A DNA stretch of 64,000 nt from Naegleria gruberi. Lineage: Eukaryota. The stretch is taken from assembly GCA_000004985.1 (NCBI GenBank), contig GG738881.1; one strand, written 5' to 3'. The position numbers were made by a program, and so were the translations under genes. Of this stretch, positions 24,647-61,130 are shown in pieces. The stretch's first letter is position 1; every line of letters starts with the position of its first letter. The notes below the pieces were generated by a model that searched no databases, had not been told where the DNA came from, and saw only the letters and a program-made list of their open reading frames with translations.

Positions 24647-24735
24647 AGGGTGGTACGTGGATCGAACACGTGACCATCGGATATCTGCTGCAAATTACAT
24701 TGCAATCCGGTGCTCTACCGCTGAGCTAACCACCC
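24647..24735 (-). tRNA. tRNA-Cys (GCA) with 17-nt intron
   Basis: Minus strand reads GGGTGGTTAGCTCAGCGGTAGAGCACCGGATTGCAA[TGTAATTTGCAGCAGAT]ATCCGATGGTCACGTGTTCGATCCACGTACCACCCT. It has a 7-bp acceptor stem, a T-loop TTCGATC, anticodon loop TTGCAAA with a canonical 37/38 intron that pairs with the anticodon, and the Cys-typical U73 discriminator. A T5 run follows at plus 24639..24643. Confidence 0.7.
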
Positions 24736-24876
24736 CTTCGATCATTACTTTTAAATATTCATTTCTATAGGAACAATATCCTTAATCAACTTTTGTTTAT
24801 AATTGTAATATTTTATTTAATTGAATAGTTTAGTTAGAAACAATTTAATATGTGAGATTTTCAAGTAGTGGTGTTG

Positions 24877-33880: not shown

Positions 33881-33953
33881 TGGGGTCAGTGAGGATCGAA
33901 CTCACGACCTTAGGATTATGAGACCTACGCGCTACCGACTGCGCCATGACCCC
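33881..33953 (-). tRNA. tRNA-Met (CAT), elongator type
   Basis: Minus strand reads GGGGTCATGGCGCAGTCGGTAGCGCGTAGGTCTCATAATCCTAAGGTCGTGAGTTCGATCCTCACTGACCCCA. The anticodon loop is CTCATAA and pairing is G1-C72, not the initiator A1:U72. It closely matches eukaryotic elongator tRNA-Met. A T7 terminator lies directly downstream. Confidence 0.85.
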
Positions 33954-36468: not shown

Positions 36469-38085
36469 TTACAAAATAAATTGATTCTGGTTCACAGAGA
36501 GAATCATCAATACTCCATCTCCTTGATCTGAAGCTTGTTGTTGAGATTTTGCAATATTAATTTCACTGTGATAATAATCATCTAGAAATGTAGTTGCTTT
36601 GAATCCAAACTTGGTGTAGAGTCTCTGAGCTGGTAAATTGAAAGAGGAAACATGTAATTGAATCCACAAACACTTCTTCCAATATTGAACAAATCCGCTT
36701 TGCATAGTTGGATAGTTATTCCAATATTTACATTCCTCTTCCTCAGTGTCAGCTATTTGGTCAACATTGACAATAACATGTTCATTAGAATTTAAAGATG
36801 AAACATAGTATGTTGTTTCAGAGGTATCTAAATTGCAGGCATTCGTCGTTGGTGTGATTGAATATTGAGAGCTTTGTACTTCATCATTCATTGATCTCCA
36901 CATCCAAGAATAGGTCAGAACATGTTGAATGGTAAATCTTAACAATTCCTGCCCAATTCCATTCTTTCTCAAATCTGGATGAACTGCAAATGAGGTAATT
37001 TCACATCGTTGCTTCTCCTTATTAATATTATAGGTAATGTAACCTGCAACAATGAGAGATCCAAAAATGTTGGTGTTATTCCTAGTACAAGCAACCCAGG
37101 TGAAATTATCAACTGGTTTTTCATGATTATTACATAGAGATTGTTTAAATGCCTGATAGAGATACTTCTTATCTAGTGGTTTTGAAAAGCAAGAGCATTC
37201 AATATCGTACAATGCCTCAAATGTTTGATCTGAGAATGGATAAATGAGAATATCTGCTGTCTTTTCTGTTGGACGAATATCAATCGAGTTGGAAGGAGAA
37301 TTATTTACATGATTTACATCCAATTGATTGGTTTGATCTGGTAAAATATCATTAAAATTGTCAACATAGATACTTTCAGCAATTCTTCTTGGTCTTTTCA
37401 TAATTGGAAGAGCTGATTGTAAGAATACATGATCAGACGGATGTGAAAATGATGAATTATTCGTAGTACTGGAATCAGTTCCACTCGTTACAGACATTGT
37501 ACTGACATTTAGCATCGATCCAGTTGTCTTTCTAATATGATTCTTCATACAAGTTGAGCACAAATCGAAATCTCTACAATTCAAACAGTGAAATCTCGTT
37601 CCATGAATGCTACACTCACATCCATCACAAGTAACACCCTTGTGAACTATCTTCCCCTGAACTATCTGAACTTGTTCCAAATTAAATGAATCAATTGGTT
37701 TGGTAAATAATTCATAATCTTTACAGTATTGATCAGCAACAAGCACTCCATTCTTTGATATTTTCTTATCCAATAATCCAATTCTTTCCAAAAGCGGATA
37801 TTTAAATTTTCTATTCAATACCAAAGCAAAACAATGTCCCTTTTTCTGATGATGTTTACCTTGTTCCTTTTTACAATTTAAACAGAGAGTATAGGCTGTT
37901 TGTTGAGAGGAAAGCGAACAATTTAAACAAATGGACATGATTTGATTTTCATTGATTTTTGATTTACAATTTTGACATGTACATTGATCGCTCCGATGAT
38001 GAATATCATTATTGAGAGGATGACCGGTCGAGGAAGAAAAAATGTGATTTCGAGAAGTAGCAGCAGGTTGGCGCAAATTGTTCAT
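36469..38085 (-). CDS. ZZ-type zinc-finger + GNAT N-acetyltransferase domain protein
   Basis: The ZZ finger reads VTCDGCECSIHGTRFHCLNCRDFDLCSTC, with N-terminal Cys clusters. The C-terminal GNAT fold reads …IVAGYITYNI…EITSFAVHPDLRKNGIGQELLRF…AQRLYTKFGFK. Confidence 0.65.
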   Translation of the reverse strand: MNNLRQPAATSRNHIFSSSTGHPLNNDIHHRSDQCTCQNCKSKINENQIMSICLNCSLSSQQTAYTLCLNCKKEQGKHHQKKGHCFALVLNRKFKYPLLERIGLLDKKISKNGVLVADQYCKDYELFTKPIDSFNLEQVQIVQGKIVHKGVTCDGCECSIHGTRFHCLNCRDFDLCSTCMKNHIRKTTGSMLNVSTMSVTSGTDSSTTNNSSFSHPSDHVFLQSALPIMKRPRRIAESIYVDNFNDILPDQTNQLDVNHVNNSPSNSIDIRPTEKTADILIYPFSDQTFEALYDIECSCFSKPLDKKYLYQAFKQSLCNNHEKPVDNFTWVACTRNNTNIFGSLIVAGYITYNINKEKQRCEITSFAVHPDLRKNGIGQELLRFTIQHVLTYSWMWRSMNDEVQSSQYSITPTTNACNLDTSETTYYVSSLNSNEHVIVNVDQIADTEEEECKYWNNYPTMQSGFVQYWKKCLWIQLHVSSFNLPAQRLYTKFGFKATTFLDDYYHSEINIAKSQQQASDQGDGVLMILSVNQNQFIL

Positions 38086-38157: not shown

Positions 38158-38238
38158 CGTTGAGGATGGGATTCGAACCCACGCGGATTACTCCACCAAC
38201 TTAGCAGGCTGGCGCCTTAACCACTCGGCCACCTCAAC
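38158..38238 (-). tRNA. tRNA-Ser (GCT), class II with long variable arm
   Basis: Minus strand reads GTTGAGGTGGCCGAGTGGTTAAGGCGCCAGCCTGCTAAGTTGGTGGAGTAATCCGCGTGGGTTCGAATCCCATCCTCAACG. The D-arm is identical to animal tRNA-Ser, the anticodon loop is CTGCTAA, and the discriminator is G73. A TTTTGTC terminator follows. Confidence 0.9.
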
Positions 38239-38377
38239 TTACGATTTAATCTTTAAAATGGCAAACAGAACTGTAACACTTACAACCTTAGTAATCTCTG
38301 GAAATTCTATGCTTCAGAGGATAAAGATAGCAATTATTATGCAATATTATCCTCCAGAACTGGTAGACAGTTTATTC

Positions 38378-41300
38378 TTAAATATCTTCTCCTGCTGGAC
38401 TAATCATTATGGAAATCTTATCCAAATCATTGCCAATAGATATGGAAGACCTATTTGGACGCATCACAATTGGATTCACATGATGTTTCTCCTTTACAAG
38501 ATATGTTTTACATTCACCTTTTCCTTTTACCGAAACTTTTCTTTCTTCAAATTCGAATAAATCGTATGTTCTTTCGTAGGTACTTCGAGAAAGTTGGATT
38601 CGTCCTGGTACCCCAGTAGATTCCATTCTTGAGGAAGTATTGATGGTATCTCCCCATAAGTCTGTTTTTAATTATAAATATTCAATATTTTTGTAACAAA
38701 TTGTAATGCATAGTTAAAATATCGAAAAACATACCATAGGCAAATTTCTTTCTTCCAATCACACCAGCAATAACTCCTCCAGTATTCAATCCAATTCTAA
38801 CATTCAATTGTGAATCTAAATTTTCAGAATTATATGAACGGATTACTGACAAGGTGTCAATTGCAAATCTCAAAGTTCTTTCTGGATGATCGGATTGAGC
38901 ATTCACACCATGCAATCCTCCAACACAAAAATACGAATCCCCAATTGTTTTTATCTTTTCCAAATTGTATTTATCTGTCAAATCATCAAATCCGTTTACA
39001 ATTCTATTAAGCATTAGAACTAGCTCAGAAGGATTCATGTTAGAACTCAAATTTGTAAATCCAACCCTAAATAGATTATTTTCTAATAAATTCAAGGAAC
39101 TTACATATCACTGAAATAACAAGTAATGTCAGAAAATCTTTCGGCAATGAAAGTTTCTCCATTTTTAAGTTTCGTCGCAACTTCTTCTGGAAGAATGTTC
39201 CTTAATAAATTTTCAGAATTTTTCTTCTCCTCCGCAAGTAAACTATTCTGTTTCTTTTCCATTGTAATGTCCTTAATAAATAGAGAAACAAATGAGCTAT
39301 TGTTAATTTCAGTTCCAAAAATGCTCACTTTGGCGGGAAATTTACTCGAATTCTTTCGAATACAATCAATTTCCAATACTTCTCCCAATTCATTTTCTTC
39401 CCCTTTCGTATGGTATTTGAATTCGCCAGTTGCTTTCTTCATCAATTCGTGAAAAGACGGATCAAAGAGTGTTGTGAAGGATAAACCCAAAACGTCAACT
39501 GCTGATTTTCCAAACATTTTCTGAGCTGCAATATTGATAAATGTCACTTCTCCTCTTTCATTACATGTGACAGCTCCTTCTACCATTGAATTGAGAAGAT
39601 TCTTAATGGCATCGTCATATTCAGTCTTTCGTTTCACATGTGAACTATTAGAAAGTGTATTATTCACAATGAAATTCTTCAAAATATCATTCGAATCTAA
39701 ATAATCTATTGGAATGTAATTCAAAAACGTTCTCAATGTGGTAATATCATAATCAGTTGTGTGAAAGCTCATATAAATGTAATAATTAAAAGCAATCAAG
39801 AAGAAAAATCCAAACACAAAGAATACAATACTAATCACTTTCGATGATGAAGTAGAAGAAAGTGTTGTCAACAATTCCAATAATCTCTCAATCATTTCAT
39901 CTGTCATGTTAAATATACTGAGATAGTACAAAAAAGTGTCAGGTGCCTTTGCATAGAATGGATTCAAAATATCTTCATTGAATTTTGAACACAAATGAAG
40001 AACAGTTGCAACTAATTCTTGTAAATCATAACACGTTCCATTTAGACATGTAAGTGGAGCAGTAATTACCTCGTCAACTCCTGGATATTTGTTGAATATT
40101 GAGCTTGTCAAATTTCCACCGAATAAAAGTTCTGCAAATTGAGATTGTGCTTCAGAAATGTAGATGCGATTATCAGAGTGGTATGTATCTAGATTGGATT
40201 GATTGGCTAATGCAGGATCGTTAACAGAATGCCCTGACTTGATACCATAAAAGGCAAACAATTCACCCAATCGGACATTTAATCTTGTGCAAGCTCTTAT
40301 CACTGATGTGGCTGTGTCCACATTGACCATGGCCTGAGATGACATGGCCACATTCAGATTATTTTCCACATACATAAATGAAATACAAAGTGAAAATACT
40401 ATTAAGGAAAGAAAACCAATACTAAGGGACATGAATTTTGGACTAACTACCCTTCTCAAATGTTTCACTTCCTGAGTGGACCGTTTTTGAAGATCATGAT
40501 AGACGGATCCGACGAATTCTTTGGGAATCTTACTGAATAGGTTGATTATTCGAGAAGATTTAGACATTCCAATTCTGGAAATTATTAAAAATGTTCCATA
40601 AATGATAATTAATACAAATGTGGAAGTAAATAAGTAAATTCTCAAAATTCTATCAAGTAGCAAATTCTGAGCCCTCTTTCTAATCTGAAATTTTGAACAA
40701 AAAAGACCATTCGCCTCACTTGCAGCTCTTCTATTAAGGTAAGTATACATAAATTCATAAGATTTGATCGTTTCATTGTAATTCTTCCAATTGTAAATAA
40801 TTTTCGTGTTGGATATGAATTCTCTCGTCAACTCACTCATGGAAATGTTCTTCTTGTAGCTCGTCGTGTAAACTCTATCACTGGTGCTTACACTTGCTGT
40901 AGGAACAACAATCGGATTAATCACAGCTTTGTAATCTTCAACCATTTGTGTTGTAAACTGTGGTGATATTGAATTAGCAGCTAGATTTTGTAAATATTGC
41001 AAAATCCTTTTCAATCTACGTTGGTGATTATTCAGAAAATATTGAATAGTTTCATATTCAGAGGAATTCACAGCTGGTTGACTAATATTTAGATTATTGT
41101 AAAGCTCATTGTAAATTTGTCCCATTCTCACTTCACGCATCAAACTTGAAGGACTCGTTCCAGGTAAGCAAGAATCCAAAGATAATGGAATTTCCGTAAC
41201 TAAACTTCCCAAAACAATGCAAAGAATGAATGCAATTAAAAGTAAAACTATCTGAAACAAGGCTAAACCAATTAATGTGTAATTTCGTACTTTGGATTGA

Positions 41301-42970
41301 TAGGGAGTGTTAAGAGCGTTTCTAATAAAGAGATGTTTCTTTTCTGTGGATCCAGCCACTTCAATTCCTTCAAATTTTTCCTCCTCCAACTCAATCATGG
41401 TATTTCGTCTATTTTCTAATAAAGTATTTGGAGGTGTAATCATACTATTGGCAATACTAAAATGCTTTTCAGTTTTTGGTTTCGTCTTTTTCTCAAACTT
41501 TTTAACAATTGGCTGAGCTTTCGACTCTTCCTCTTCCAACTGAAAAGCTTGTTCGAATAAATCAGCAGCTGTTTCCTTGTCAAACTTGAAATTCTCTAAA
41601 TAACTTGCATAAAACCTCAACACTGTCTTATCGTGTTTAAAATTTGTCATTAAATGTTTAAATCTCTCATCACAATACAAGGTCAATGCAGTTGTACGAG
41701 AGATTAGTTGATTGATCTTAATTTCATTAGGTAGGTCAGAAATTATTTCCTTCCAAAACATGCGATGGATTGACCACAACTCATCCTGTTGTTTTTCCAG
41801 ATCGTGGAGCATGGTTTTGATTTCTACTTGATTAATTCCGTGAGTTTTAGTTGAGCTGTAAACTTCAATTTCTTTCATTCTTTCCATAATTAGAATTCTT
41901 GTCCAGCCATTGTTACAGAAGCGTTTTGCCTTTTTTAGAATGTAGGTAGCATAGGAAGAACTGTTTTCATCGTTCCAATANNNNNNNNNNNNNNNNNNNN
42001 NNNNNNNNNNNNNNNNNNNNNNNNNNNNNNNNNNNNNNNNNNNNNNNNNNNNNNNNNNNNNNNNNNNNNNNNNNNNNNNNNNNNNNNNNNNNNNNCCAAT
42101 TCGTTGTCTCCACACTCGTATCCTACTATGGACCTTTCCTTTCAAAGTTCTAAACTCGGTCACAAGTATGGCCATGAAGATAAAGTACATGGCCATGAGA
42201 ACACTAGTAATGGCAATTTTCGCCGTATATCCAATTGCATCCAATGAAAGTGTGATAGGATAATTGAGTACACGGAACACCCAACTAGCATACTGTCCAT
42301 ACGGATTTTCCTTAATATAATTGGTATTCGAAAGTGGATAATTACTTCTCTCTGAAGAAAGTGTTGGAAATATCAAATTAACCCAATACATGTACATGTA
42401 GAAACCAAAAATCAACACCCTCTCAAACATTCGAATCTCAGTTTCACTCGTTTTCACAGTCAAGTAAAAGTTTGCCAATTTTTCATTGAATAATTGAAAG
42501 ACTGAAGTTGGTGCACCACTCGAAGTTGTTAAAACATTATTGAAAGAGGACATGTTATCGGATGCTGTTGCTGGATTATTTCCTCCTCCAACTCCTGCTA
42601 TGGATAAATCGTACTGTGTATTTGTTGCTTGTGTTGGGCTGACAATTTGAATATTAGTTGAATTGTTATTGCTAATAGGAGTGGTTATTATGGTTGTGGT
42701 TGTGGAGTTTTTGTTGTTGTTGTTGTTATTCAGCTGATAAATTCCGCTACCACTCGAGGAATTAAGGAAATTAATATTGTTATTGTGATTAACATTGTTA
42801 TTGTTGTCGTTTGGTAATGTTGGAGAGGAAGTTAATGTAATTAGTGGAATGCTCATATCATCGCTTGCTTGTTGTTGAAGCATCGTCGTTGCTAAAGTAG
42901 AGACTTGTGGTGAAGATGAAGATGAAGAAGTGTTATCAACAATATTGCTCATCATCCTATGTTTTTTCAC
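38378..42970 (-). CDS. polytopic membrane class III nucleotidyl (adenylyl/guanylyl) cyclase with PAS domain; contains the assembly gap
   Basis: The long 5' exon (39105..42970) has an Asn/Ser-rich N-terminus, ≥8 predicted TM helices separated by two large loops, a PAS-like domain (…VTCNERGEVTFINIAAQKMFGKSAVDVLGLSF…) and the cyclase lead-in LLRNILPEEVATKLKNGETFIAERFSDITCYFSD. A 38-nt intron (~39067..39104, GTAAGT…TTTAG) follows. The middle exon (38735..39066) reads …VGFTNLSS…KIKTIGDSYFCVGGL…RIGLNTGGVIAGVIGRKKFAY. After an intron at ~38662..38734, the last exon (38378..38661) reads DLWGDTINTSSRMESTGVPGRIQLS…VKGKGECKTYLV. Confidence 0.8.
41980..42095. other. assembly gap (116 N)
   Basis: A run of n characters, giving about 39 X residues in the cyclase ORF. 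Confidence 1.
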
Positions 42971-43665
42971 TTGTCCTTACTTTGAAAATAGAAACCAATA
43001 GAGTTTTCGTACTGAAAAGGAAATACGGAGCAACACAAATCAGTCCCTTAATAATTTACAGAGTCATCATCACATCATCATTGTGCGAGTGTTGTTGGAG
43101 AGCTTGTATTGTTACATAGTGTTGGGTATACATCATTTCAAAGTAGTTCGTTTTTGTGCACTCAAATGGAGTCCAAATTTGGATAGCTTAATTTTTTAAA
43201 AAGTAAATTACATTCTGCTTATTGAGATGGTGTTGCAAGACCAATAATGTCAGGAATTTGAATAATATTGTTTGGTCAACTGTCCAAAAAATCAAATTTT
43301 CAATAGATCTAAGTATCTAAAGCCTTGAGGAGTAATGTAATTATTCAATATGGACAATGTTTTCAATTGTGTCATGGTGCTAATTAACATCCAGAACTTT
43401 GCTCCTTCATATTCAAGCTCATTTTCTCCAATGCAGAGTGTTTCAATACAGCAATTATCTGTAACACGGTTAGACTCAATTTGCTGGGGAATATTGCAGA
43501 AAGTTTAGTCAATCGATCCAGTTGACTAATTGGTCTAATTCCATCTTGTCTAAACTCGGCCCAAGACAAAGAAATACTTCATCTTTAATACGGGAACAAA
43601 TAATATTGTTTGGACACTTATTGGTATTAGTAGTTGATCAGTAATTACATGAATAAACAATTGGT

Positions 43666-46483
43666 TTATTCATCATCTTGATAGATTTTTTCCAAACCGA
43701 GTATGGTATTCTTTTCAACTTGAACTGTGAGATTGTGTTCTTTGAGTAAACCGTTTGAGCAAAAGATTCTTCTCACCGATTGCAAGACACGTTGATGATC
43801 TACTTGGTCATTATTGGCGACACGAACCTTAATGGTAGCAATTAATTCTTGCTTTCTCTTGTCAGCATCAATTTCAATGTCCTCCTCATCAGCTTCATCG
43901 AGTGAGGAACAATTGAGAGCCCAAAAATGTTCACTATGACATTCCAATACTCCTTCAACCATGGATGAAACTTCCTTTACACACGAGTTCAAATGATTAG
44001 ATAAATTTTCAGGAGTTGTCTGCAATAGAATTTTTCCATTGGCCTTCAACACAGGAAGAGAGAAGAATACGCATGTCATTGTACTCATACAACATAGAAC
44101 AAAATCAAATCCAATACCAGCACTTGAATAGTAAACAGCTTTCAAATAAATAAAGAGAGCAACGTGAATGTGAGCCTCTCTCATAATGATATAGATCCAA
44201 AACTTGGCAGATGGAATCTTTTCTCTGATATAATTGTGAATAGTATTGTAGTATCTTCCAATAGTTGTTGTTTGGGAGGTGTTAAAAACCGAGTTGAAGG
44301 AGGAAAATTGTTGGTACCACATTGGTGAGCTATTCATTCTATTCAAAGGAACACTTCCTCGAGAGGAATTAGAAGATGGATTCTTTCGCTTCTCGGCAGA
44401 AGAGAGCAATAAAAAGTCTTCTTCATTCTTCTTTGCCTGATAGGAGGAACTTCCTGAATAATTTCCAAACAAGTAAATTGATAATCCATTAATAAATAAT
44501 CCAAATAATACGAGAAGATATGTGAAAATACCAACTCTGTACTGATCCAATAGTGTGTCAATAGTTGTTGAATGATCATTAGAAGCCCTAGCTGATGAAG
44601 GAATGTGCAAACCAACGCCATTCTCTTCCTCATGAGCTTGGGAAGAGAATTTAGAGGTGAGTACATATTGAATCATTTCAGAAAAGATACTCAATGAGAG
44701 GAAGGAAGAAAATACAGCATTGGCAAAACGTAACAATACTCTCAAACGTTTCCACAAAGAATAAGTATAGGGTTGGAAGAGTAATCTCTTGATTGAACCC
44801 TCCTCTTCCAGTGTGGAATTATCCCCAAATGACGATGTATTATTTAGTGATGATGTTGTTGATCCGAGAGGAGAGTCAAAGGTGTTGCTATTATTATTAT
44901 TATTGGGAACAGAGTTTGTCTTGAATTGGCTCGACTTGTTAATGACACTACTGCTCGACCCCTGTAATGTATTCTCTTCGTGTGTAGTCTTGATGTAAAT
45001 TACAATTAAATCGATCAAAAACATAAATCCTCTGTGGAGGAGATAAAATCCAGAAAATAATATTAACAAGCTGACCATGAATCCGTGATTTCTAAAGCTT
45101 TGTACAATATTCTCTTGTTCTTCATTGTTAGATTTGGCAGATTCGTGATTATGTGTACTGCCATACTGAATCATACCAATGAAAATTTCCAAAATTGAAA
45201 ATGTTAAAATGATAATGCAAAATAGGAAATGTGTCTTCAATTGTTGATGTTGTTGGAAGGAGAGGGAGTAATTTCTTGATGAACTCAAGGAGAGGGGAGA
45301 AATGAAAAACGAAACAAATTGTTGAATATTTCCCAGCAACCAATGTGCTTCAGGATTAGTATTCTGTAAGGATTGAATCCAATTGGACAAACTGGTCAAA
45401 TTGTCGGAAATATTCTTCTTTGTAAATAATTGTTTGTATCCACCAGTGGTAATTAAATGTTTCAAATTCAAGATAAAACCAATCACAAACACAATCAATG
45501 TCTTGAACCAATTTAAAAACATGGTTGAAAATAAATGTATTCTGACAGACATATCTTGAGCAATAACAAGAATAGGCATGTCACCTTCATCTATTTCTTG
45601 TCCAGAACAGAAAATTCTTTTAAACGATCTAATTCCTCTCTGTAATCTTCTCCAAACATTGTTACCCAATTGCATACTTTTTGCTTTTCTTTGGTCATTT
45701 GGAATATGATTACATTGTTCATTACATTGATTGTTGTTGTTGTTGCTGGAATTGTTTTTGTCGTCTATTACTGGTACTGCTGCTACTACCAATTAATTGT
45801 GGAGAGAAGGAGAAGGAATCCCGTGATGAATCAGTCAATTGTTGTTGTTGATTGTTATTATGAGAAGGAGAGGAGGGAATAAAGAAACTAATAGCCAAAT
45901 CAGAGTTGCTATTAATTCCACTGTTTAAAGATGGTGATGATGAGGTTGCTATAACAACATTTGCTGATGTTTGTGTGGAATTGAAAAGATCATAGGGATT
46001 TGGTACACGGGCACTTGTTGTTGTAATATTCAAGTGAGAAGTGGCAGTACTACCCGAGGATGATGCAGAAGGTGAAGCAATCCTCGCACTACCTGCCAAT
46101 GACAGTGGTGGTACGGTTATCAATGAAGCACCACCTTGTTCTGGTGATTTTACTCCAAATCCACCAGTAGCAATAATGGTATCATTTGGTATTGTTGTAG
46201 TTATTGTTGGCGAAGAAGAAGAATTGGTATCAACAGCAGCAGCAACTACACTCACTATAGATCCTCCATCATCTTCATTGTTGTTATTATTTGTTGTACT
46301 TCTACCACCATCAACAATTACATCAGACACCTTCGGATGGATTATTGTTACTGTTGTTACTAACATCCACTTGCTGTGATGGAAGCGCGGAGGTGTTTTC
46401 CATTTTTTTCTCGGATGATGACGATATTTATTGTGATGATGATAATATGACATCACCAACATTGATATTCTTATTGGTGGCAA
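43666..46483 (-). CDS. cation diffusion facilitator (ZnT/SLC30-like) metal transporter with His-rich N-terminus; frame break near 45722..45792
   Basis: The upstream ORF (45722..46483) has a His-rich N-terminus (SYYHHHNKYRHHPRKK) and Ser/Thr/Asn low complexity. The downstream 708-aa ORF has multiple TM segments and a CDF C-terminal domain (…LLQTTPENLSNHLNSCVKEVSSMVEGVLECHSEHFWAL…ELIATIKVRV…). The two ORFs overlap by ~70 nt around an A5 run. Confidence 0.6.
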
Positions 46484-46762
46484 CAGAGGGATTATTGTTA
46501 CTTATTGGATAATATTAAGATGAAATGGTGTTGTGAAGAATGAATAAAATTTGAATAAAAAATTGTTGGTTGCATTGTTTTAATAATTAAATGGTTGTGT
46601 AAAAAGTTTTGATAATAAATAAGGTTTTCAGTGCGCCTTTTACTAAATAATTTAAATTTAAATAGTCCAACTTATATTAATATCTAATAAGTATTTAAAT
46701 AAATTTTAAAATAAAAAATAAATTTCCTTACCAGATTGAAATCCAAAATTAGAACAAAAAAA

Positions 46763-48593
46763 ATGTTGTTCAAACAATCAGAAGGCACTTCCAACTCTTT
46801 TTCTTCGTCGGAAGAGGCCTCTTCTTCCTCATCCATGAGTGATGATCAAAATACTAATAACAATAATAATACAAATCAGAATAATAGTGATCACGAAGAT
46901 CAACATGAGGATGATGAAGGAATTAATAGGAGAAAATCATCAACTAGTTTTAGAAAATTAGTGGAAAAGAGAAAGTATGGAGTGATGGTAAGTCTTTCAT
47001 TGAATGAGTTTAAATTAATGAATTAATAATATTAAGAATGGATCGGAATTTTCTGATCAAGTCTATTCTTCATCCTCTATCATTCAATCATTGAGTGCTA
47101 GTGGTAAATTAATTGGCCACAAGGTAAGCTTACTTTTAATCATTAATTGATCAAATATATTGAATCATTCAATATAATAGGGTTGTGTCAATTCTATCAA
47201 TTTTAATGTGTCTGGTGATTTGATTGTAACTGGAAGGTAAGTTTTGATTAACACATTCATATATGAAAATCAATATAGTGACGATACAACTGTAAAGGTG
47301 TGGGATACTTGGACTGGAAAGTGTTTGAAAACATTTGGTGGACATGTTTCGAATGTTTTTGCAGTTTCATTCCTTAATGGAAATGATAATATGGTGATTA
47401 GCGGAGGAAATGATTCAGATATTCGTCTATATGATGTGGAAAGGGGATCATGTACTGTTTTTCAACATCATAGAAAGAAGGTACTAAAAATTGCATGTCA
47501 CTCTGCACTTCCAAGTTGTTTTATGAGTTGTTCTGCTGATGGAACCATTCGTTTGTTTGACACACGTTGTAAATATGAAAATTGTAAAATAGAGCAGGAT
47601 TTAAGGTTAAACCCCAATATAATAGATGCCTACGATCATGATATGAATGTTGCTCCTCAATACAGTGGTGGAGGTAGAAAGAATACAGTCATTTCAAGAG
47701 AAGTTACTGAACCTTCATTGATTGTTGATTTTGAAGGTGAAACCTTGTACAGTGTAGATATTAATCCATCTTGTTCGAATGAGTTTATTGTCTCATCAGA
47801 ACTTTCAGATACTCGTTTATTTGATATGAGAAAAGTTGGTAATCATTCATACCAATCCTACTTGAATATTTTCAGAAATTTGGAAGTGGAGTCGGCTCCA
47901 GTTTCTGGTAGTAGTTTTTCAACGAATGGACGCCAAATTGTACATACTCATTTAGGAGAAAAGATTTATACCTTTGATACGTATCATAATTTTGAGAAGG
48001 ATGAAGGTCTTAATTATTCAGATCAAGAAAAAGCAGAATCAGATGTAAAATCATACCAGAGAAGATATCGGTAAGTTTACTAATTTATAATATTAATTTT
48101 TAATTATTTCATCTTAATTTGTAGTGGTCACGTATCTGAGGATACAATTAAGGGAGTTAGCTTTTTCGGTAGAAATTCTGAATATGTCATGTCAGGTTCT
48201 GACAATAATGATATTGTCATTTGGGATAATCAAACAGGAGAACTTGTGAGAATTTTGGAGGGTCATGGTGAAACAGTCAACACTGTTGTTGGCCATCCAA
48301 AATATCCAATCATTTGTTCTGGAGGTATTGAGGACTTTGTGTATATTTGGAAACCATCTGCAGATAAAATGACTTTATCTGAGGAGGAAGTAAAAAAAAG
48401 AAAGCTGGACATTGAAAGAGCTCTTTCCAATGAATCAACTGGAGAATATTCATCAAATGCATTCGAGTTCATGATGGCCTTTCATGAACTCTTAAATTCT
48501 GGAAATCCTAATTGGCAACGAATATTATTAAGACATATTGCCATGACAGAAGAGGATGATTCTGAAGAAGAGGAAGAGGATGATGAAAATTAA
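46763..48593 (+). CDS. DCAF8/WDR42-like WD40 protein (5 exons)
   Basis: Exons lie at ~46763..46987, ~47037..47123, ~47181..47236, ~47279..48070 and ~48125..48593, all with GTAAGT/GTAAGC donors and phases consistent. They encode …GKLIGHK|GCVNSINFNVSGDLIVTG|SDDTTVKVWD… and the C-terminal …SGSDNNDIVIWDNQTGELVRILEGH… plus an acidic tail. This is colinear with DCAF8. Confidence 0.8.
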
Positions 48594-48616
48594 ATGTTTT
48601 TTATCAATATAATAGA

Positions 48617-51419
48617 CTACTTTTCTGTAGCAATATATACACCATTCCAAGAATCTGGAGGTGGTTCAAGCAAATAAGCTCTGCATCTCTCTGCCATTTC
48701 AAGAGCTGCTGAATCTTGATTATACTTGTCAGCATACTCTCTGAATGCCTTCTCTGCAACACCAAACTTTTTCTTCAGGTACAAGTCTTCCAGAATGTTA
48801 TTGTACAATCTGCAATAATCAACCTTATCTTGTGGAATCATAACCGAATCTCCTTGGAATGGTGACCATTTTCTAGCAACAATTTCATAAACTCTAACAC
48901 CAGTTACTTTACCCTTGACAGCGACCACATCTAACATTCTGAAAAGGAACAAGTCTTTGACAATTTCATAACAAAACTCTGACACCATAATGTTAGTTCC
49001 ATACACCTTATTCAAACCTTCCAATCTAGAAGCAAGATTTACAGAGTCTCCCAAACAAGTATAAGATAAACGATATGTTGAACCAATATTACCGACAAGG
49101 ACATCACCACAACTAACACCCACTCTAGTGTAGAGACCTGGCTTGCCTTCCTTTTCTAATTGTCTATTATAAGGCTGGAGGGATTTTTGCATTTCGAATG
49201 CAGCATTGCAACCGAAAAAGACATAAAAATCAAATGTATCTGGAGCACCAAACAAGGCCATCTAATATTATTTCATTGAAAATGGTTAAGCATTGCACAA
49301 GTTATTAAAACCTACCAAAGAGTCGCCAATATACTTATCCAAAACACCTCTATTTCTATATACAACTTCAGAGGTAACTTCAAAGTATTTACCCAAGATG
49401 GCAATCAATGTGTTGGGCTCTGTTGCTTCACAAATAGTCGTAAAACTCTTAATATCTGAAAATAGAATGGCAATATGTTTGGAATCAACACCCAAATCAA
49501 ACGATGCTGAATCACTGCCAATAAATTTGGAGACAATTTCTTTTGGTACGTATTTCATGAAACCATCGACAGCCAAAGACATTTTAGTAAAGTGGTTTCT
49601 CAATTTCTTAACTTCGTGGAAGAGAATTAGACGCTTCTTCTTTGCTTGAACTTGACCTTTACCAAGAGCGTCCATATCATTTCCGAGCGAAACAAGAGGG
49701 GCTGTAATTAACATACTCACAACGACAGCAATAACTAAGGAAACAAACAAAATGATACAGTCAGCAATCAAGACGATATTTCTAAACCAAATAACAGAAC
49801 CCATAAAATCGTCGACTGACATGATTGTTAAGACCTTCCAATTAAGGTCATGTTCATCGTCTACGGATTCCATATTCAACAAGTAACTGTTACCATTCAC
49901 TGTGTATTGATTGTCATGGCCTGTGAAATCTTGCAGATTACCCCCATACTTGGTCATAAGTAATTTACCAATTTCCTGCACATCCGGCAGTGAGCTTTCA
50001 TGAAGTTTCTTTCGCACCAGTTTATGAGGAACAATTTGATCATAAACATATAAAATTTCTTCGTTTGGTTTGGAGCAAGCAATCATTTCACTGGTTAGAG
50101 AAGAAACCACATACACCATTGAGTTGGGACTCATTTTGACACTTGCCAAATAGGCATTAATATCTTTGACAAGCAGATCTGTCGTTACCACATATTGAAC
50201 ATCTCCTGTAGCATTCAGAATTGGATGGTATGCTGTAATCCAAACACTTTCTACATTACTTGTTGCATACAAACTTGTCCATCCTTTCTTTTTTCTTTCT
50301 AAGGGGAAAGTCCACCATTCGAAACCGTACACAATTTCAGCATCCAATGATTGAGGTTCTTTTCTGCTCAAATTATACCTAAAATCACTAAAAATTGGTT
50401 CTTCAGCATAAAGAACACCATTCTGATAGTACTCTATTGTACATGCTGTCGTATTACTCAATATACCAAAATAGTAGTCATCTTTGTGAGTGAATGAGGC
50501 ATAACGAAGTCCAAAACCCATGACCATAGAGTAGAGAACTTGAATTCTTAGATTCCAATCAACCATTTTGGGGCTCAACTTGTCAAGTGCAGTAAAACTG
50601 TTCGTTACACTATCAGTAATTTGGAACGGTAGTTGAATAAAGTTATTCACGAATTCAACTGTTCTCAGCTTTGTTTGTGATCCCAGATTGGTAGTGAATT
50701 CATTAATAGATGCACCTATAGTTTTCAATTCATTATAAGAATCAGAAATTTAAGAAATTGATTGACTAAAAAGACATACCTTGTAAAACAATAGTAGCAA
50801 CGAATATGGAAATAGTCGAAATAAGGATCAATAGAATGATAATCACAGAAAGACAAAACTTAATGGAGAATATTCTAGATACCAGAGAATTCAAATAATT
50901 TTTCTCCTTCTCCACTTTTTTCCCCTTCTCCAGTGTGAGATCTTCATCTTCGGCTAGTACTTCTTTAAGCTTTTTCTCATCTTCTGCACTTGCAACGGGC
51001 ACTATCAATTTACTATTGCTTGCCTTTCTTGTGGCATTGCTCTTTTGCTTTTTAACTTCCTTCTTATTTGTTGTCTTTGTATTCTTTCTAAGTGATTCCT
51101 TGGTCGTTAAGGACTTTTTCATAGGTGATGATGGTGTGTTCGTCGACACAACAGCAGCCTTTGATAAATTATTGCTGCTACTACCGTTGGTACCAGTAAT
51201 ATTATTACTACTACTATTATTATTATATGCAACAACATTATTATTTGATAAATCAGTGATGGGTGTGAGTGTTGTTATTGGGGTTACGGGCGATGTGGTC
51301 GATTCATCATTATTATAATCATTAAGGATTTGTAATTCCGAACTGGTTGATGTTACCAGAGCTGCTGCTGAGGAGGAATTATTGGTTGATTTATTCTTTT
51401 GGGCTACTCGTGTGACCAT
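48617..51419 (-). CDS. receptor-type class III adenylyl cyclase with extracellular sensor domain between two TM helices (ACG-like), 3 exons
   Basis: Exon 1 (~50780..51419) is an Asn/Ser-rich cytoplasmic N-terminus ending in TM1. After an intron at ~50716..50779 (GTATGT…TATAG), exon 2 (~49315..50715) carries the ~330-aa extracellular domain, TM2 (IVLIADCIILFVSLVIAVVVSML) and the start of the cyclase (…HIAILFSDIKSFTTICEATEP…VLDKYIGDSL). After an intron at ~49262..49314, exon 3 (48617..49261) reads MALFGAP…RVGVSCGDVLVGNIGS…LGDSVNLASRLEG…. Confidence 0.8.
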
Positions 51420-51845
51420 ATTGATGATAAGGCATTTATTTTTTCTACTGCTGTTTTTATTGTTGTTGGTTTTAAGGTTCGTTAAGGTTCGGTTTTGAGT
51501 TGTTTTTTTATTGTGGAATATTAAAAAATTACAGTAATTTCCATTTTGAAACCTGTTACTAACTTTTTTGGATACACCATAGTGTATATATATTGGATTA
51601 AGGCACTTTCAGTCCATTAATTTTCAACGGCTTGTTTTTACAACCGTCCCTCAGTGCCAATATATTAAGCACTTTAGAATCAATTCCTATAAGGAAGATA
51701 CTCCTTCCAGCCATTTCGAATTTTATTGAGAGTGAACATTTTTCTATCTCCAGATAATTATATAGAAATAAGAGTACAGTTAAACAACATTGTAATCAGC
51801 TTGTCATGTTGCTGGAAAAATAATGATTTTCTAACTTTAAAAAAA

Positions 51846-58806: not shown

Positions 58807-60672
58807 TCACTTAAATTTATTCTTTTCAACGAAAAATTGTGGCATTAGTTCAATAGTGGCAAGACACTGATTGTAAAGATAGGCCATTTTTTCCTCTCCG
58901 AAAAAAGAATGAAAGTTTGTTTCTTCGGTGGAATATTTGTGACGAATGGTTTGGCAATATTGAGCGAATGGCATTCCATTGTATTGAATATGTTCAAGAG
59001 CATACTTGAAACCATCTAGCATGTGTGGATTCGTTAGGCCTGCATATCCAAGAGATCCAGTGGTATAGGGGTTGAAGAAATCTGCAATTTTTTCAATACA
59101 TTCCACACCTATGGATGGACTAAAGTTGTCAATCATGAGTTTAAATGATTCCCTAACATCATCAAAACCATAATAATCCACAAAGCAAGTAAGCATTTTG
59201 GAATTGATTTCTGATAAAAACTCCAAAGTTATTCCCTTGTAATTATTAAATAGAATATTCAAATCATACTTTGCAGGGTACATCTCAAAGAATGGTTTGA
59301 AAAATTGATTAGGTGAGCTTTTGCAATAGTTTCTAAAGTATGATAAAATAAAGTTAGTATTTCCCGTTTCTGGACTTATTTCATAAGGGTCAAAATTTTC
59401 AATTTTTGATAACAAGTGTGAAATCTTTGAACGGTAGTTGAATCTGTGAAAGATAATCTTTAAATCGATTGGAGTAATCATTCCACGCTCACTTAATAAA
59501 TCAATAATTTCTCTTTCATAACCATATAAAAAGAGACTATGTGATTTGACTCTGGAATAATCAATAGATTTTTCCTCAAAAACTTCCAAAAACTGACAAA
59601 GACTGTTGACAACTTCTTCTGGCGTTTCACATGAGTCAGGACTGAAGAATTCCATAAAATATTTGTCTTTTTGATATCTGAAATGCCACTCAAAACATGT
59701 TTGAAAGTTATCAAGCCATTGATTAGGATAAATAGCATTGAACATCTTTTTTAAATATCTCAATCTCACCATTCTTTTGGTACGTGTCAGCTGCATGAAA
59801 TCAATATATGGATCTTCACTTTTTTCATAATTTCCCTCCACAGAAATATAGTTCAGTAAAAAATCCAAAAAGCTTTCATTTCCATTTTCATCTTCATTCA
59901 CATTCCAATAGGAAATTAAAATCTTTTCCAAAATCTTGTCATTTAGAATTGGTTTGAAATTTTGAACAAAGCAAATTACTTGAGGAGAACAATCATCGTC
60001 TGTTTTCCCAATCTCACCACTCATCACATCAGCAATTGAAAAAGTAAATCGTTTCCAATACTCTTGAGCATAAAGAGAATTATTCACTCGTCCATTCAAT
60101 GTGAACTTTTTAGCTTGGTTAAGGAAATACTGAGCCATATATCCAGAATGTTCATAATTGACCACTCCCTTCGTGAAATCGTGACGAATCTCATCCACTC
60201 CCTTTGCCATCTTCATATTATAGTGCATAATCATGGCAGAGGAGGCCAACTTTTTAAATCTCATCCCAAATACTGTCGATTTCTCTCCCTTCTCTCCATA
60301 CCTATCTTCATCCATATACTTTTCAAAACTTGCCCTACTCACCGATTTTTCCTTCACAATCTGCGATTCATAAAACTTGTTCAATTGACTAATTATTGAC
60401 TTGTACAAATTCCCGCCTTTTTTTTTTCTTTCATGACCCATCACCATCATCAAATCATTTTCATCACCATCATCGGAATGATTTAATTTTCCATAATAAT
60501 CAATCTTTGTTTGTATAAAATTGGACAGCAGTGTTTTCCACACAATTTCAAACCGATCCAATTCGTACCAATTTTTGCAGGTGCAGAGGAGTGAGAGACC
60601 ATCTGCAATGGAGAGAAATTCGAGGATGGCAAAGAGTGTGTCAATGTGAATCTCTGTATTGTTGCTGGACAT
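58807..60672 (-). CDS. hypothetical protein with N-terminal F-box-like motif
   Basis: A 621-aa ORF. The N-terminus (IDTLFAILEFLSIADGLSLLCTCKNWYEL) resembles an F-box. The remainder is unassigned. Confidence 0.4.
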   Translation of the reverse strand: MSSNNTEIHIDTLFAILEFLSIADGLSLLCTCKNWYELDRFEIVWKTLLSNFIQTKIDYYGKLNHSDDGDENDLMMVMGHERKKKGGNLYKSIISQLNKFYESQIVKEKSVSRASFEKYMDEDRYGEKGEKSTVFGMRFKKLASSAMIMHYNMKMAKGVDEIRHDFTKGVVNYEHSGYMAQYFLNQAKKFTLNGRVNNSLYAQEYWKRFTFSIADVMSGEIGKTDDDCSPQVICFVQNFKPILNDKILEKILISYWNVNEDENGNESFLDFLLNYISVEGNYEKSEDPYIDFMQLTRTKRMVRLRYLKKMFNAIYPNQWLDNFQTCFEWHFRYQKDKYFMEFFSPDSCETPEEVVNSLCQFLEVFEEKSIDYSRVKSHSLFLYGYEREIIDLLSERGMITPIDLKIIFHRFNYRSKISHLLSKIENFDPYEISPETGNTNFILSYFRNYCKSSPNQFFKPFFEMYPAKYDLNILFNNYKGITLEFLSEINSKMLTCFVDYYGFDDVRESFKLMIDNFSPSIGVECIEKIADFFNPYTTGSLGYAGLTNPHMLDGFKYALEHIQYNGMPFAQYCQTIRHKYSTEETNFHSFFGEEKMAYLYNQCLATIELMPQFFVEKNKFK

Positions 60673-60792
60673 TTTTTTTTTTAATTGTTTTTTAAACTTT
60701 GAAAACTATTTGTAAATAAATTTATGAATTTTACAAAATAATTTCACATAAAAATTACATCAATAATGGGTACACAGATCCTTTTACAGTTC

Positions 60793-61130
60793 TGATTTTA
60801 ATCAAGTAGATATTCGTGAGGGTATCAATACTGGAGCTGCAATTGCTGGAGTGATTGGGTAAAAAACAATTAAAAAAAAAATGTCCAGCAACAATGCAGA
60901 GAAGTTGTTTCTAGAAATTTAAACATTAACAAATAATAGCACCAAGAAATTTGCATATGATTTGTGGGGTGTAAGTATTTCAATACTGTATTGTTGATAT
61001 GTAAACATGCAAGGAATTGTAAGCTCTCAACTATGTTGTATAAATATTCCTCGGTCTGTTGAGATTTCGTTTCAAATTCAAATGTCATCAACTTTACACA
61101 ACAACTTTTCAATCAGTTTCTTCTTCACTG
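60793..61130 (+). pseudogene. degenerate fragment of a class III cyclase catalytic domain (pseudo-exons)
   Basis: Plus-strand translation gives …VDIREGINTGAAIAGVIG|gtaaaa…aatag|TKKFAYDLWG|gtaagt…. This is the conserved RIGxNTGxVVAGVIG and KFxYDLWG motif pair with intron-like spacers. The downstream continuation (DFVSNSN…) is degenerate, and no upstream N-terminal or TM exons exist. Confidence 0.5.

What the first reader, a model, noticed from the sequence alone, without database searches (positions are those of the whole stretch)
38378..51419. Two different membrane class III nucleotidyl cyclases within 13 kb
Gene 38378..42970 encodes a polytopic (≥8 TM) protein with two large loops, a PAS domain and a single C-terminal cyclase domain. 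Gene 48617..51419 encodes an ACG-like receptor cyclase with an extracellular sensor domain between two TM helices. A degenerate cyclase fragment lies at 60793..61130 (reported separately). The PAS + polytopic architecture does not match the textbook Dictyostelium enzymes (ACA 12-TM/2-domain, ACG, ACB, GCA, sGC). It may define a lineage-specific sensor-cyclase.
Basis: partly seen in the sequence, partly recalled or inferred. Interest (0 to 1): 0.5.

Follow-up and report, generated by a model that had tools for sequence, protein, structure and literature searches.

The report
Two unrelated Naegleria receptor adenylate cyclases
The window is Naegleria gruberi, not Dictyostelium, and holds two real but unrelated membrane adenylate cyclase genes that are most likely neighbours by chance in a genome with some 80-110 cyclases: one belongs to a family seen so far only in Heterolobosea, the other is a bacterial-type sensor cyclase that seems to be missing from the reference annotation.

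Summary
The window is Naegleria gruberi.

**Gene 1** (minus strand, 42955..38378, three exons)
- It is one gene, already in GenBank as "membrane bound adenylate/guanylate cyclase with PAS domain".
- Six TM helices are visible. Paralogues show the 115-N gap hides about 300 residues with six more, giving 12 TM.
- Layout: cytosolic TmcB-type TPR domain, two extracellular helical-bundle loops, PAS_9, and one class IIIa cyclase domain with all six catalytic residues (Lys/Asp, so ATP).
- The architecture recurs in at least nine N. gruberi paralogues and in N. fowleri, N. lovaniensis, Willaertia and Acrasis. Every named relative I looked up is heterolobosean.

**Gene 2** (minus strand, 51419..48617, three exons)
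- Layout: TM, dCache sensor, TM, HAMP-like linker, class IIIb cyclase (Lys/Thr).
- Closest relatives beyond Naegleria and Willaertia are dCache-cyclases from metagenomes; the one context checked is bacterial.
- No N. gruberi protein for it was found in 5.8 billion clusters.

The two cyclase domains share 28% identity and unrelated genes lie between them. With 81-108 cyclases, 2-4 pairs this close are expected by chance. Ligands are unknown. Interest is modest.

The parts
38378..42955 (-). Gene 1, whole: exons 42955..39105, 39066..38735 and 38661..38378 (stop included), with GT-AG introns at 39104..39067 and 38734..38662. The model is 1488 aa, including 38 X from the gap. It is the N. gruberi TmcB-TPR/PAS/class IIIa adenylate cyclase.
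41981..42095 (.). Assembly gap of 115 N inside exon 1 of gene 1. The frame is kept across it. In four paralogues and orthologues the equivalent stretch is 292-317 aa and holds six TM helices plus the start of the TPR-like domain.
42161..42418 (-). Gene 1 TM1 (about aa 180-199) and TM2 (aa 247-265), upstream of the gap.
41519..41857 (-). Gene 1 TPR_TmcB domain (aa 367-479). It is cytosolic by topology inference.
   Evidence: PF25474, 5.5e-12, 46.1 bits against a 27-bit cutoff
39788..41266 (-). Gene 1 four-TM module: TM9 (aa 564-582), loop 1 (583-774), TM10 (775-793), TM11 (841-859), loop 2 (860-1037) and TM12 (1038-1056). Both loops are modelled as helical bundles continuous with the TM helices. 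They carry 4 NxS/T sequons each and conserved Cys residues.
39263..39580 (-). Gene 1 PAS_9 domain (aa 1126-1231).
38492..39145 (-). Gene 1 class IIIa cyclase domain (aa 1271-1451, interrupted by two introns). Catalytic residues are D1283 and D1327 (metal), K1323 and D1395 (adenine), N1402 and R1406 (transition state).
48617..51419 (-). Gene 2, whole: exons 51419..50780, 50715..49316 and 49261..48617 (stop included), with GT-AG introns at 50779..50716 and 49315..49262. The product is 894 aa.
49778..50713 (-). Gene 2 extracellular dCache (double PDC) sensor, aa 215-526. It is flanked by TM1 (aa 192-210, 50846..50790) and TM2 (aa 527-545, 49777..49721).
   Evidence: pLDDT 85.3; Foldseek E=5e-11 to Mlp24, PctA, TlpQ and Tlp3 ligand-binding domains
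49526..49720 (-). Gene 2 HAMP-like linker (aa 546-610, pattern P-L..L....M.A.G.G ... EV..L...F..M). This is inferred from the sequence pattern and from HAMP hits in homologues; Pfam gives no hit on gene 2 itself.
48902..49480 (-). Gene 2 class IIIb cyclase domain (aa 626-800, one intron). Catalytic residues are D634 and D678 (metal), K674 and T748 (substrate), N755 and R759.
48620..48901 (-). Gene 2 C-terminal extension of about 94 aa, conserved with bacterial-type dCache/CHASE2 cyclases (consensus ...ERC......PP...W.GV.....K).
60783..60971 (+). Degenerate class IIIa-like cyclase relic (SDFNQVDIREGINTGAAIAGVIG ... TKKFAYDLWG). It has no flanking cyclase exons. Listed for completeness only.

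Best explanation
Two independent receptor-type adenylate cyclase genes of Naegleria gruberi lie 5.6 kb apart, most likely by chance.

**Gene 1** belongs to a multi-paralogue family whose named members are all heterolobosean.
- It has a 12-TM anchor. Eight N-terminal helices come first, six of them hidden in the assembly gap. A cytosolic TmcB-type TPR domain follows, then four more helices.
- Those last four helices carry two extracellular helical bundles.
- A cytosolic PAS domain and a coiled-coil transducer (LLRNILPEEVATKLK) lead to a single class IIIa catalytic domain.
- Inferred mechanism: the catalytic domain homodimerises to form two ATP sites. A signal taken up by the extracellular bundles and/or the PAS domain passes through TM12, PAS and the coiled coil to set cAMP output.

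**Gene 2** is a bacterial-type sensor cyclase.
- An extracellular dCache domain between two TM helices binds an unknown small ligand.
- The signal passes through a HAMP-like linker to a class IIIb catalytic domain, which also works as a homodimer.

**Shown:** gene structures, domain identities, catalytic residues, family distribution.
**Inferred:** topology, dimerisation, ATP specificity, signal path.
**Unknown:** ligands.
For: - Organism and prior annotation. P0001 is 98% identical by BLASTP there and 100% over the matched stretch.
- Single-gene status and gap content: collinear with P0002-P0005; the missing stretch is 292-317 aa with 6 TM helices.
- Gene 1 domains.
- Same Pfam architecture in Naegleria (P0002), Willaertia (P0154) and Acrasis (P0199).
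- Rarity of the membrane module: 89 representatives at E<=1e-3 among 1.84 billion proteins; 40 carry the cyclase and 49 the PAS domain.
- Named members are all Naegleria, Willaertia or Acrasis.
- Class IIIa assignment and six catalytic residues of gene 1: best solved relatives are AC9 at 3.7e-67 and mycobacterial Cya.
- Gene 2 sensor: AF2 pLDDT 85.3 and Foldseek E 5e-11 to dCache ligand-binding domains. 15 of 20 homologues hit Pfam dCache_1.
- Gene 2 class IIIb assignment with the Lys/Thr pair: best solved relative is P. aeruginosa CyaB at 2.7e-27.
- Gene 2 relatives: orthologues in N. lovaniensis, N. fowleri and Willaertia, then dCache-cyclases from metagenomes. One of these sits in a bacterial context.
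- Unrelatedness of the two genes: 28% identity between cyclase domains, no tblastn cross-hit, and a WD40 gene plus unassigned ORFs between them.
- Chance expectation of 2-4 pairs within 13 kb: using the cyclase count from PMC9928731.
Against: - There are no expression or cDNA data. Splice sites are inferred from GT-AG boundaries and motif restoration only.
- About 20% of gene 1 is missing from the assembly, so an inactivating lesion or an extra intron in the gap cannot be excluded.
- Gene 2 itself scores below the Pfam cutoff for a Cache model (24.7 against 27 bits).
- Its pocket motif DPRTRPWY is replaced by YGFEWWT.
- Substrate specificity is predicted from residues, not measured.
Confidence: 0.8

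Rival explanations
1. The two cyclases form a functional cluster or arose by local duplication, so their proximity is meaningful.
For: Both genes are on the minus strand within 13 kb, and a third cyclase-like relic lies 9 kb further on.
Against: - The cyclase domains are 28% identical and belong to different subclasses, IIIa (Lys/Asp) and IIIb (Lys/Thr).
- The sensor modules are entirely different.
- Unrelated genes lie between them.
- 2-4 such pairs are expected by chance.
Confidence: 0.05
2. Gene 1 is really two genes, a TmcB-like membrane protein and a separate PAS-cyclase, joined artificially across the gap or by read-through.
For: An assembly gap interrupts the gene. The N. fowleri relative P0005 (951 aa) ends after loop 1 and has no cyclase.
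Against: - The gap lies in the N-terminal TM region, not between the membrane module and PAS.
- From 41980 to the first cyclase intron the ORF is uninterrupted.
- More than 30 representatives of 1400-1800 aa carry all modules collinearly, including Willaertia and Acrasis proteins.
Confidence: 0.04
3. One or both enzymes are guanylate cyclases or catalytically dead regulators.
For: GenBank names gene 1 'adenylate/guanylate cyclase' without deciding. Specificity residues are only predictive.
Against: - Both have both metal Asp residues and the Asn/Arg transition-state pair.
- Gene 1 has Lys1323/Asp1395, as in mammalian C2 domains and in Rv1625c-type enzymes.
- Gene 2 has Lys674/Thr748, as in P. 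aeruginosa CyaB.
- Neither has the Glu/Cys pair of guanylate cyclases.
Confidence: 0.08
4. Gene 2 is bacterial contamination or a very recent transfer rather than a resident Naegleria gene.
For: - No N. gruberi protein matches it in the large database.
- Its relatives outside Heterolobosea are dCache-cyclases from metagenomes, and the one context checked is bacterial.
Against: - It has two spliceosomal GT-AG introns that split conserved motifs.
- It has an N/S/T-rich low-complexity N-terminus.
- Its GC content (0.34-0.36) matches the flanks, and it sits between eukaryotic genes.
- It has 47-61% identical orthologues in N. lovaniensis, N. fowleri and Willaertia.
- An ancient transfer into Heterolobosea remains plausible. 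A 35% identical full-length homologue sits on a contig whose neighbours hit PTR2, Iml2-TPR_39 and DUF952. I read that contig as possibly eukaryotic, so the family may reach beyond Heterolobosea.
Confidence: 0.03

Closest known systems
GenBank/RefSeq N. gruberi 'membrane bound adenylate/guanylate cyclase with PAS domain' (P0001, 1399 aa) and its N. gruberi paralogues (P0002, P0003, P0004, P0223, P0138, P0139, P0185, P0190)
   Same: P0001 is the same locus as gene 1, 100% identical over the matched stretch. The paralogues share TPR_TmcB + PAS_9 + Guanylate_cyc and the same TM and loop layout.
   Different: The deposited model jumps the gap (…TLKGK|AKRFCNNGW…). It also mis-splices the first cyclase intron, losing MVGFTNLSSNMNPSELVLMLNR. 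The paralogues are complete across the region that is missing here.
Mycobacterial Rv1625c/Cya-type and mammalian membrane adenylate cyclases (class IIIa)
   Same: The catalytic domain of gene 1 is closest to AC9, AC8, AC5 and mycobacterial Cya. It has the same six catalytic residues and a coiled-coil transducer before the domain. Like Rv1625c it has one catalytic domain per chain, so a homodimer is implied.
   Different: The anchor has 12 TM helices in an 8+4 layout, with a cytosolic TPR domain and two large extracellular bundles. A PAS domain sits between membrane and catalytic domain. Mammalian enzymes have two catalytic domains and 6+6 TM helices.
Dictyostelium TmcB/TmcC (tiny macrocysts proteins)
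   Same: They share the Pfam TPR_TmcB domain (46 bits). TmcB is reported to regulate the cAMP pathway during sexual development (PMC12750705 and PMC8516963).
   Different: Only the segment of about 115 aa was shown to be shared. Whether TmcB has the same TM and loop module was not tested. From memory, TmcB has no cyclase domain.
Bacterial dCache_1-(HAMP)-class IIIb adenylate cyclases, and P. aeruginosa CyaB for the catalytic domain
   Same: Gene 2 has the same order of TM, dCache, TM, linker, cyclase and conserved C-terminal tail. Identity is 26-35% over 80-100% of the length. The Lys/Thr pair is shared.
   Different: Gene 2 is a eukaryotic gene with two introns and a low-complexity N-terminal extension of about 190 aa. 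The DPRTRPWY pocket motif has degenerated to YGFEWWT in the heterolobosean orthologues.
Dictyostelium ACG
   Same: General topology: an extracellular sensor between TM helices, followed by one catalytic domain.
   Different: From memory, ACG carries a CHASE-type sensor, whereas this one is a dCache. ACG did not appear among the 120 listed relatives. The resemblance is one of design, not of family.

Membership tests
Class III nucleotidyl cyclase (PF00211) | Catalytic-domain profile match above the curated cutoff | tested here: met
   Gene 1 scores 180.9 bits and gene 2 scores 76.2 bits against a 21.9-bit cutoff.
Class III nucleotidyl cyclase (PF00211) | Two metal-binding Asp residues plus the Asn/Arg transition-state pair | tested here: met
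   Gene 1 has D1283, D1327, N1402 and R1406. Gene 2 has D634, D678, N755 and R759. Both sets were read from alignments to AC9 and CyaB.
Class III nucleotidyl cyclase (PF00211) | Dimeric active site and measured cyclase activity | not testable with these tools
   This needs protein expression and an assay.
Class IIIa adenylate cyclase | Lys/Asp substrate pair (KTIGD ... YDLWGDTVN) and closest similarity to metazoan or Rv1625c-type domains | tested here: met
   Gene 1 has K1323 and D1395. Its best solved relatives are AC9, AC8, AC5 and mycobacterial Cya.
Class IIIb adenylate cyclase | Lys/Thr substrate pair (DKYIGD ... YTxxGDxVNLASRLE) | tested here: met
   Gene 2 has K674 and T748. Its best solved relatives are CyaB 3r5g, bPAC/OaPAC and Spirulina CyaC. 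The subclass definition is from my memory of Linder and Schultz.
PAS domain | Profile match above the curated cutoff | tested here: met
   PAS_9 scores 50.7 bits against 27, and PAS scores 29.2 against 22.6.
Haem-binding PAS (FixL/DosP type) | Conserved proximal His on the F-alpha helix | tested here: not met
   The nearest solved PAS domains are FixL and DosP, at only E 5.6e-5. The FixL proximal His aligns to Leu, and the nearby His is not conserved in P0003 or P0004.
TmcB/TmcC family | TPR_TmcB domain (PF25474) | tested here: met
   46.1 bits against 27. The domain is also present in P0002, P0154, P0199 and P0140.
TmcB/TmcC family | Shared full-length membrane architecture with Dictyostelium TmcB | not tested
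   No Dictyostelium TmcB sequence could be fetched. No named Dictyostelium protein appeared among the 20 relatives of gene 1's membrane module that I looked up.
dCache_1 sensor domain | Pfam dCache_1 or PDC profile match above cutoff on the protein itself | tested here: not met
   Only MCP-like_PDC_1 hits, at 22.8-24.7 bits against a 27-bit cutoff.
dCache_1 sensor domain | Double-PDC fold with a long N-terminal stalk helix, and homologues that match dCache_1 | tested here: met
   The AF2 model has pLDDT 85.3. All 50 listed Foldseek hits are chemoreceptor or histidine-kinase sensor structures of the double-PDC (dCache) type, at E 5e-11 to 4.5e-8 and probability 1.00. 15 of 20 homologues hit dCache_1.
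Amino-acid-binding dCache_1 (dCache_1AA) | Y..DPRxRPWY pocket motif with conserved Arg, Trp and Tyr | tested here: not met
   Bacterial-type homologues have DPRTRPWY. Gene 2 has YGFEWWT and its orthologues have FEWWS, MIWWT or MAWWT. The motif definition is from memory.
HAMP linker | HAMP profile match | tested here: inconclusive
   Pfam gives no hit on gene 2. Many homologues carry PF00672, and the sequence pattern is HAMP-like.
Mammalian/ACA-type 12-TM adenylate cyclase | Two catalytic domains (C1 and C2) in one chain, each after six TM helices | tested here: not met
   There is a single catalytic domain, and the TM layout is 8 + TPR + 4.
Dictyostelium ACG | CHASE-type extracellular sensor and close sequence relationship | tested here: not met
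   The sensor is a dCache. ACG is not among the listed relatives. That ACG has a CHASE domain is from memory.

The most novel reading that the evidence does not exclude
The gene 1 family, known so far only from Heterolobosea, may be a eukaryotic chemoreceptor-cyclase. Two extracellular four-helix-bundle sensors, built like bacterial MCP, NIT or PilJ ligand-binding domains, would directly gate a PAS-coupled adenylate cyclase. Its physical fusion of a TmcB-type module to a cyclase would then be a 'Rosetta stone'. It would suggest that the orphan Dictyostelium TmcB/TmcC proteins, which affect cAMP signalling in sexual development, act by sensing a signal and controlling an adenylate cyclase.
Probability: 0.2. 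Interest if true: 0.55.

Novelty: new member of a known kind. Interest (0 to 1): 0.3.

Why it matters
**What is of practical use**
- The deposited N. gruberi model of gene 1 is wrong in two places. It skips about 300 residues at the gap and loses 22 residues of the catalytic domain.
- Gene 2 appears to be missing from the N. gruberi protein set altogether.

**Possible biological interest**
- The gene 1 family is a clear case of a class III cyclase whose membrane anchor looks like a receptor rather than a mere anchor.
- Its fusion of a TmcB-type domain to a cyclase gives a testable lead for the uncharacterised TmcB family.
- Gene 2 adds a eukaryotic example of the bacterial dCache-cyclase design.

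None of this overturns current views. Large and diverse cyclase repertoires in Naegleria, Acrasis, Physarum and Acanthamoeba are already documented.

Tried and rejected
- **First gene 2 search.** The full-length query was swamped by low-complexity words and returned only two hits. It was repeated without the N-terminus.
- **Genome paper.** The Naegleria genome paper (Cell 2010) is not held, so the figure of 108 cyclases stays a recollection. 'At least 81' comes from PMC9928731.
- **Free-text TmcB search.** It returned chemistry papers. Adding 'Dictyostelium' gave two useful statements.
- **Annotation around gene 1.** The look-up of encoding contigs for P0001 found no record. I could not list the genes called around gene 1 in the reference annotation.
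- **Internal duplication.** I tested whether loop 1 and loop 2 are duplicates. hhalign gave probability 27% and E 7e-4, which is inconclusive.
- **Haem-PAS idea.** Rejected because the proximal His is not conserved.
- **Amino-acid-sensing dCache idea.** Rejected because the pocket motif is lost.
- **Tandem duplication.** Rejected.

Full report
**1. What is in the sequence**

The window is AT-rich (GC 0.27-0.37). Reading the minus strand of 38200..43300 and 48400..51800 shows two genes with short GT-AG introns.

Gene 1:
- Exons are 42955..39105, 39066..38735 and 38661..38378.
- The two introns split FSD|MVGFT and FAY|DLWGDT. Removing them restores canonical class III cyclase motifs.
- The ATG is at 42955.
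- A run of 115 N (41981..42095) lies inside exon 1. With the two preceding bases it makes 39 codons, so the frame is nominally kept.

Gene 2:
- Exons are 51419..50780, 50715..49316 and 49261..48617. The product is 894 aa.
- The second intron splits GDSL|MALFGAP.

**2. Organism and prior annotation**

- The post-gap part of gene 1 finds 'membrane bound adenylate/guanylate cyclase with PAS domain [Naegleria gruberi]' (P0001). Identity is 98% by BLASTP and 100% over the matched stretch.
- Three N. gruberi paralogues follow at 63%, 45% and 41% identity.
- The window is therefore N. gruberi, not a dictyostelid.
- The deposited model jumps over the N run (…TLKGK|AKRFCNNGW…), which suggests the same assembly.
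- The model also mis-splices the first cyclase intron, losing MVGFTNLSSNMNPSELVLMLNR.
[quoted passage not shown] My recollection of the 2010 genome paper is 'at least 108'; that paper is not held.

**3. Gene 1 anatomy**

Pfam domains:

| Domain | Residues | E-value | Bits |
|---|---|---|---|
| Guanylate_cyc | 1271-1451 | 2.3e-53 | 180.9 |
| PAS_9 | 1126-1231 | 2.5e-13 | 50.7 (cutoff 27) |
| TPR_TmcB | 367-479 | 5.5e-12 | 46.1 (cutoff 27) |

Transmembrane helices and the gap:
- Hydropathy finds TM helices at about 180-199, 247-265, 564-582, 775-793, 841-859 and 1038-1056. That is six visible helices, not eight or more.
- Alignment with P0002-P0005 shows the N run replaces 292-317 residues. In every relative this stretch holds six further TM helices and the start of the TPR-like region.
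- The real protein is therefore about 1750 aa with 12 TM helices, laid out as eight, then the TPR domain, then four.

Topology, inferred with PAS and cyclase in the cytosol:
- The TPR domain and the 47-residue TM10-TM11 linker are cytosolic.
- The two large loops (192 and 178 aa) are outside.
- This fits their four NxS/T sequons each and their conserved cysteines.

Structure of the TM9-TM12 segment:
- An AlphaFold model built on 27 family members is confident (pLDDT 87.6, pTM 0.81). Each loop forms a helical bundle continuous with its TM helices.
- Foldseek finds nothing significant in the PDB.
- The loops therefore look like bacterial-style helical sensor domains, but this is a resemblance and not a proof.
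- Loop 1 and loop 2 are not demonstrably duplicates (hhalign probability 27%).

**4. Gene 1 catalysis and PAS**

- The catalytic domain is closest to class IIIa enzymes. AC9 scores 3.7e-67, and AC8, AC5 and mycobacterial Cya follow.
- One domain carries all six residues that mammalian enzymes split between C1 and C2:
  - metal binding: D1283 and D1327;
  - adenine specification: K1323 and D1395;
  - transition state: N1402 and R1406.
- This predicts a homodimeric adenylate cyclase, not a guanylate cyclase.
- The segment LLRNILPEEVATKLK before the domain aligns with the coiled-coil segment that precedes the AC9 catalytic domain.
- The PAS domain is nearest to FixL and DosP, at only E 5.6e-5. 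The proximal His is not conserved among paralogues. Its cofactor or ligand is unknown.

**5. Distribution of the gene 1 family**

- An exhaustive HMMER search with residues 326-1099 (TPR plus the four-TM module) found only 89 representatives at E<=1e-3 among 1.84 billion proteins.
- Of 92 sequences screened (the hits beyond P0001 and P0005, plus P0001-P0005), 40 also carry the cyclase and 49 the PAS domain. More than 30 are proteins of 1400-1800 aa with every module in order.
- I looked up names for 20 of them. Every named member was Naegleria gruberi, N. lovaniensis, N. fowleri, Willaertia magna or Acrasis kona.
- N. gruberi alone has at least nine paralogues.
- Pfam gives TPR_TmcB + PAS_9 + Guanylate_cyc for the N. 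gruberi paralogue P0002 and for the Willaertia and Acrasis proteins.
- Gene 1 is one gene. The ORF is continuous from the gap to the cyclase, and the architecture is conserved across genera.

**6. The TmcB connection**

- A TmcB-type domain fused to an adenylate cyclase in Heterolobosea is suggestive.
- Only the TPR segment of about 115 aa was shown to be shared. I could not fetch Dictyostelium TmcB to compare the membrane parts.

**7. Gene 2 anatomy**

- TM helices lie at 192-210 and 527-545, around a domain of about 312 residues.
- Pfam gives Guanylate_cyc at 3.1e-21. The only Cache-type match is sub-threshold: MCP-like_PDC_1 at 22.8-24.7 bits against a 27-bit cutoff.
- Homologues settle the question. 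15 of 20 match dCache_1.
- An AlphaFold model of the sensor (pLDDT 85.3) shows the long stalk helix and two PDC modules.
- All 50 listed Foldseek hits are chemoreceptor or histidine-kinase sensor structures of this double-PDC type. They include Mlp24, MkcA, PacA, TlpQ, Mlp37, PscC, Tlp3, PctA/B/C and TlpA, at E 5e-11 to 4.5e-8 and probability 1.00.
- The pocket motif DPRTRPWY of the bacterial-type homologues is YGFEWWT here, and similarly degenerate in the heterolobosean orthologues. An amino-acid ligand is not predicted.
- The linker after TM2 has a HAMP-like pattern, and many homologues carry HAMP, but gene 2 has no profile hit.
- The catalytic domain is class IIIb. Its best solved relatives are P. 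aeruginosa CyaB at 2.7e-27, a cyanobacterial cyclase (2w01), photoactivated cyclases and Spirulina CyaC.
- It has D634 and D678, K674 and T748, N755 and R759. This again predicts an active homodimeric adenylate cyclase.
- A C-terminal tail of about 94 residues is conserved with the bacterial-type proteins.

**8. Gene 2 relatives**

- The best hits are N. lovaniensis (57%), N. fowleri (61%) and two Willaertia proteins (47% and 37%). Unnamed metagenomic dCache-cyclases follow at 26-35% identity over most of the length.
- One of these (P0021) lies in a bacterial context. It sits next to an outer-membrane efflux protein, a cNMP-binding protein and a metallo-beta-lactamase-fold gene.
- The closest one (P0020, 35% identical, full coverage) lies on a 39% GC contig. 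Its neighbours hit PTR2, Iml2-TPR_39 and DUF952, and I read it as possibly eukaryotic.
- No N. gruberi protein matched gene 2 in either search. In one search all 7059 candidates were scored.
- Gene 2 is therefore apparently unannotated in the reference proteome.
- Its introns, its composition and its orthologues show it is a resident gene, not contamination.

**9. Is the proximity meaningful?**

- The two catalytic domains share 28% identity and do not find each other by tblastn.
- They belong to different subclasses and carry different sensors.
- Between them lie a WD40 gene and ORFs with no family assignment.
- With 81-108 cyclases in about 41 Mb, a given cyclase has a 5-7% chance of a neighbour within 13 kb. 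About 2-4 such pairs are expected genome-wide.
- The adjacency needs no special explanation.

**10. Verdict**

- The comparison frame (Dictyostelium) and the implied significance of the pairing are not supported.
- Gene 1 is an already-annotated, though mis-modelled and incomplete, member of a receptor-cyclase family known so far only from Heterolobosea.
- Gene 2 is a bacterial-type dCache cyclase that seems to have been missed in annotation.
- Both are new or poorly described members of a known kind. Interest is modest (0.3).
- The most novel reading not excluded is the chemoreceptor-cyclase and TmcB 'Rosetta stone' idea, with a probability of about 0.2.

Noticed in passing
window 38378..42955 (-), against P0001: The deposited N. 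gruberi protein for gene 1 (1399 aa) splices around the N gap. It also uses a wrong donor/acceptor at the first cyclase intron, deleting MVGFTNLSSNMNPSELVLMLNR from the catalytic domain.
   Followed up: yes
window 48617..51419 (-): No N. gruberi protein matching gene 2 exists in the 5.8-billion-cluster database, although N. lovaniensis, N. fowleri and Willaertia orthologues do. The gene appears to be unannotated in the reference genome.
   Followed up: partly
window 60651..60692 and 60861..60902: A 42-nt inverted repeat (88% complementary). The second arm copies the 5' UTR and start codon (ATGTCCAGCAACAAT) of the minus-strand gene 58807..60672. It sits inside the degenerate cyclase relic, between ...AIAGVIG and TKKFAYDLWG, which suggests a local rearrangement.
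   Followed up: partly
window 38158..38238 (-): A tRNA-Ser(GCT) gene lies about 140 bp downstream of the gene 1 stop codon. tRNA-Met (33881..33953) and tRNA-Ile (24644..24736) are also in the window.
   Followed up: no
P0004 (N. gruberi paralogue), residues about 1-350: This paralogue's model has an N-terminal extension of about 350 aa containing a SAM-methyltransferase-like motif (LDIGCGNGSV). This is probably a fusion of two neighbouring gene models.
   Followed up: no
L002 2265..5673: The bacterial dCache-cyclase homologue P0021 is followed directly by a cNMP-binding protein and a metallo-beta-lactamase-fold gene (Lactamase_B and Anti-Pycsar_Apyc1 hits). This looks like a compact module for making, reading and degrading a cyclic nucleotide.
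   Followed up: no
window 48620..48901 (-) and alignment A1: A C-terminal tail of about 90 aa after the class IIIb domain is conserved from bacterial-type dCache/CHASE2 cyclases to Naegleria (consensus ...ERC......PP...W.GV.....K). Its function is unknown to me.
   Followed up: no
window 36469..38085 (-): The ORF next to gene 1 encodes a ZZ zinc finger plus a GNAT acetyltransferase domain. It is unrelated to the cyclases.
   Followed up: no
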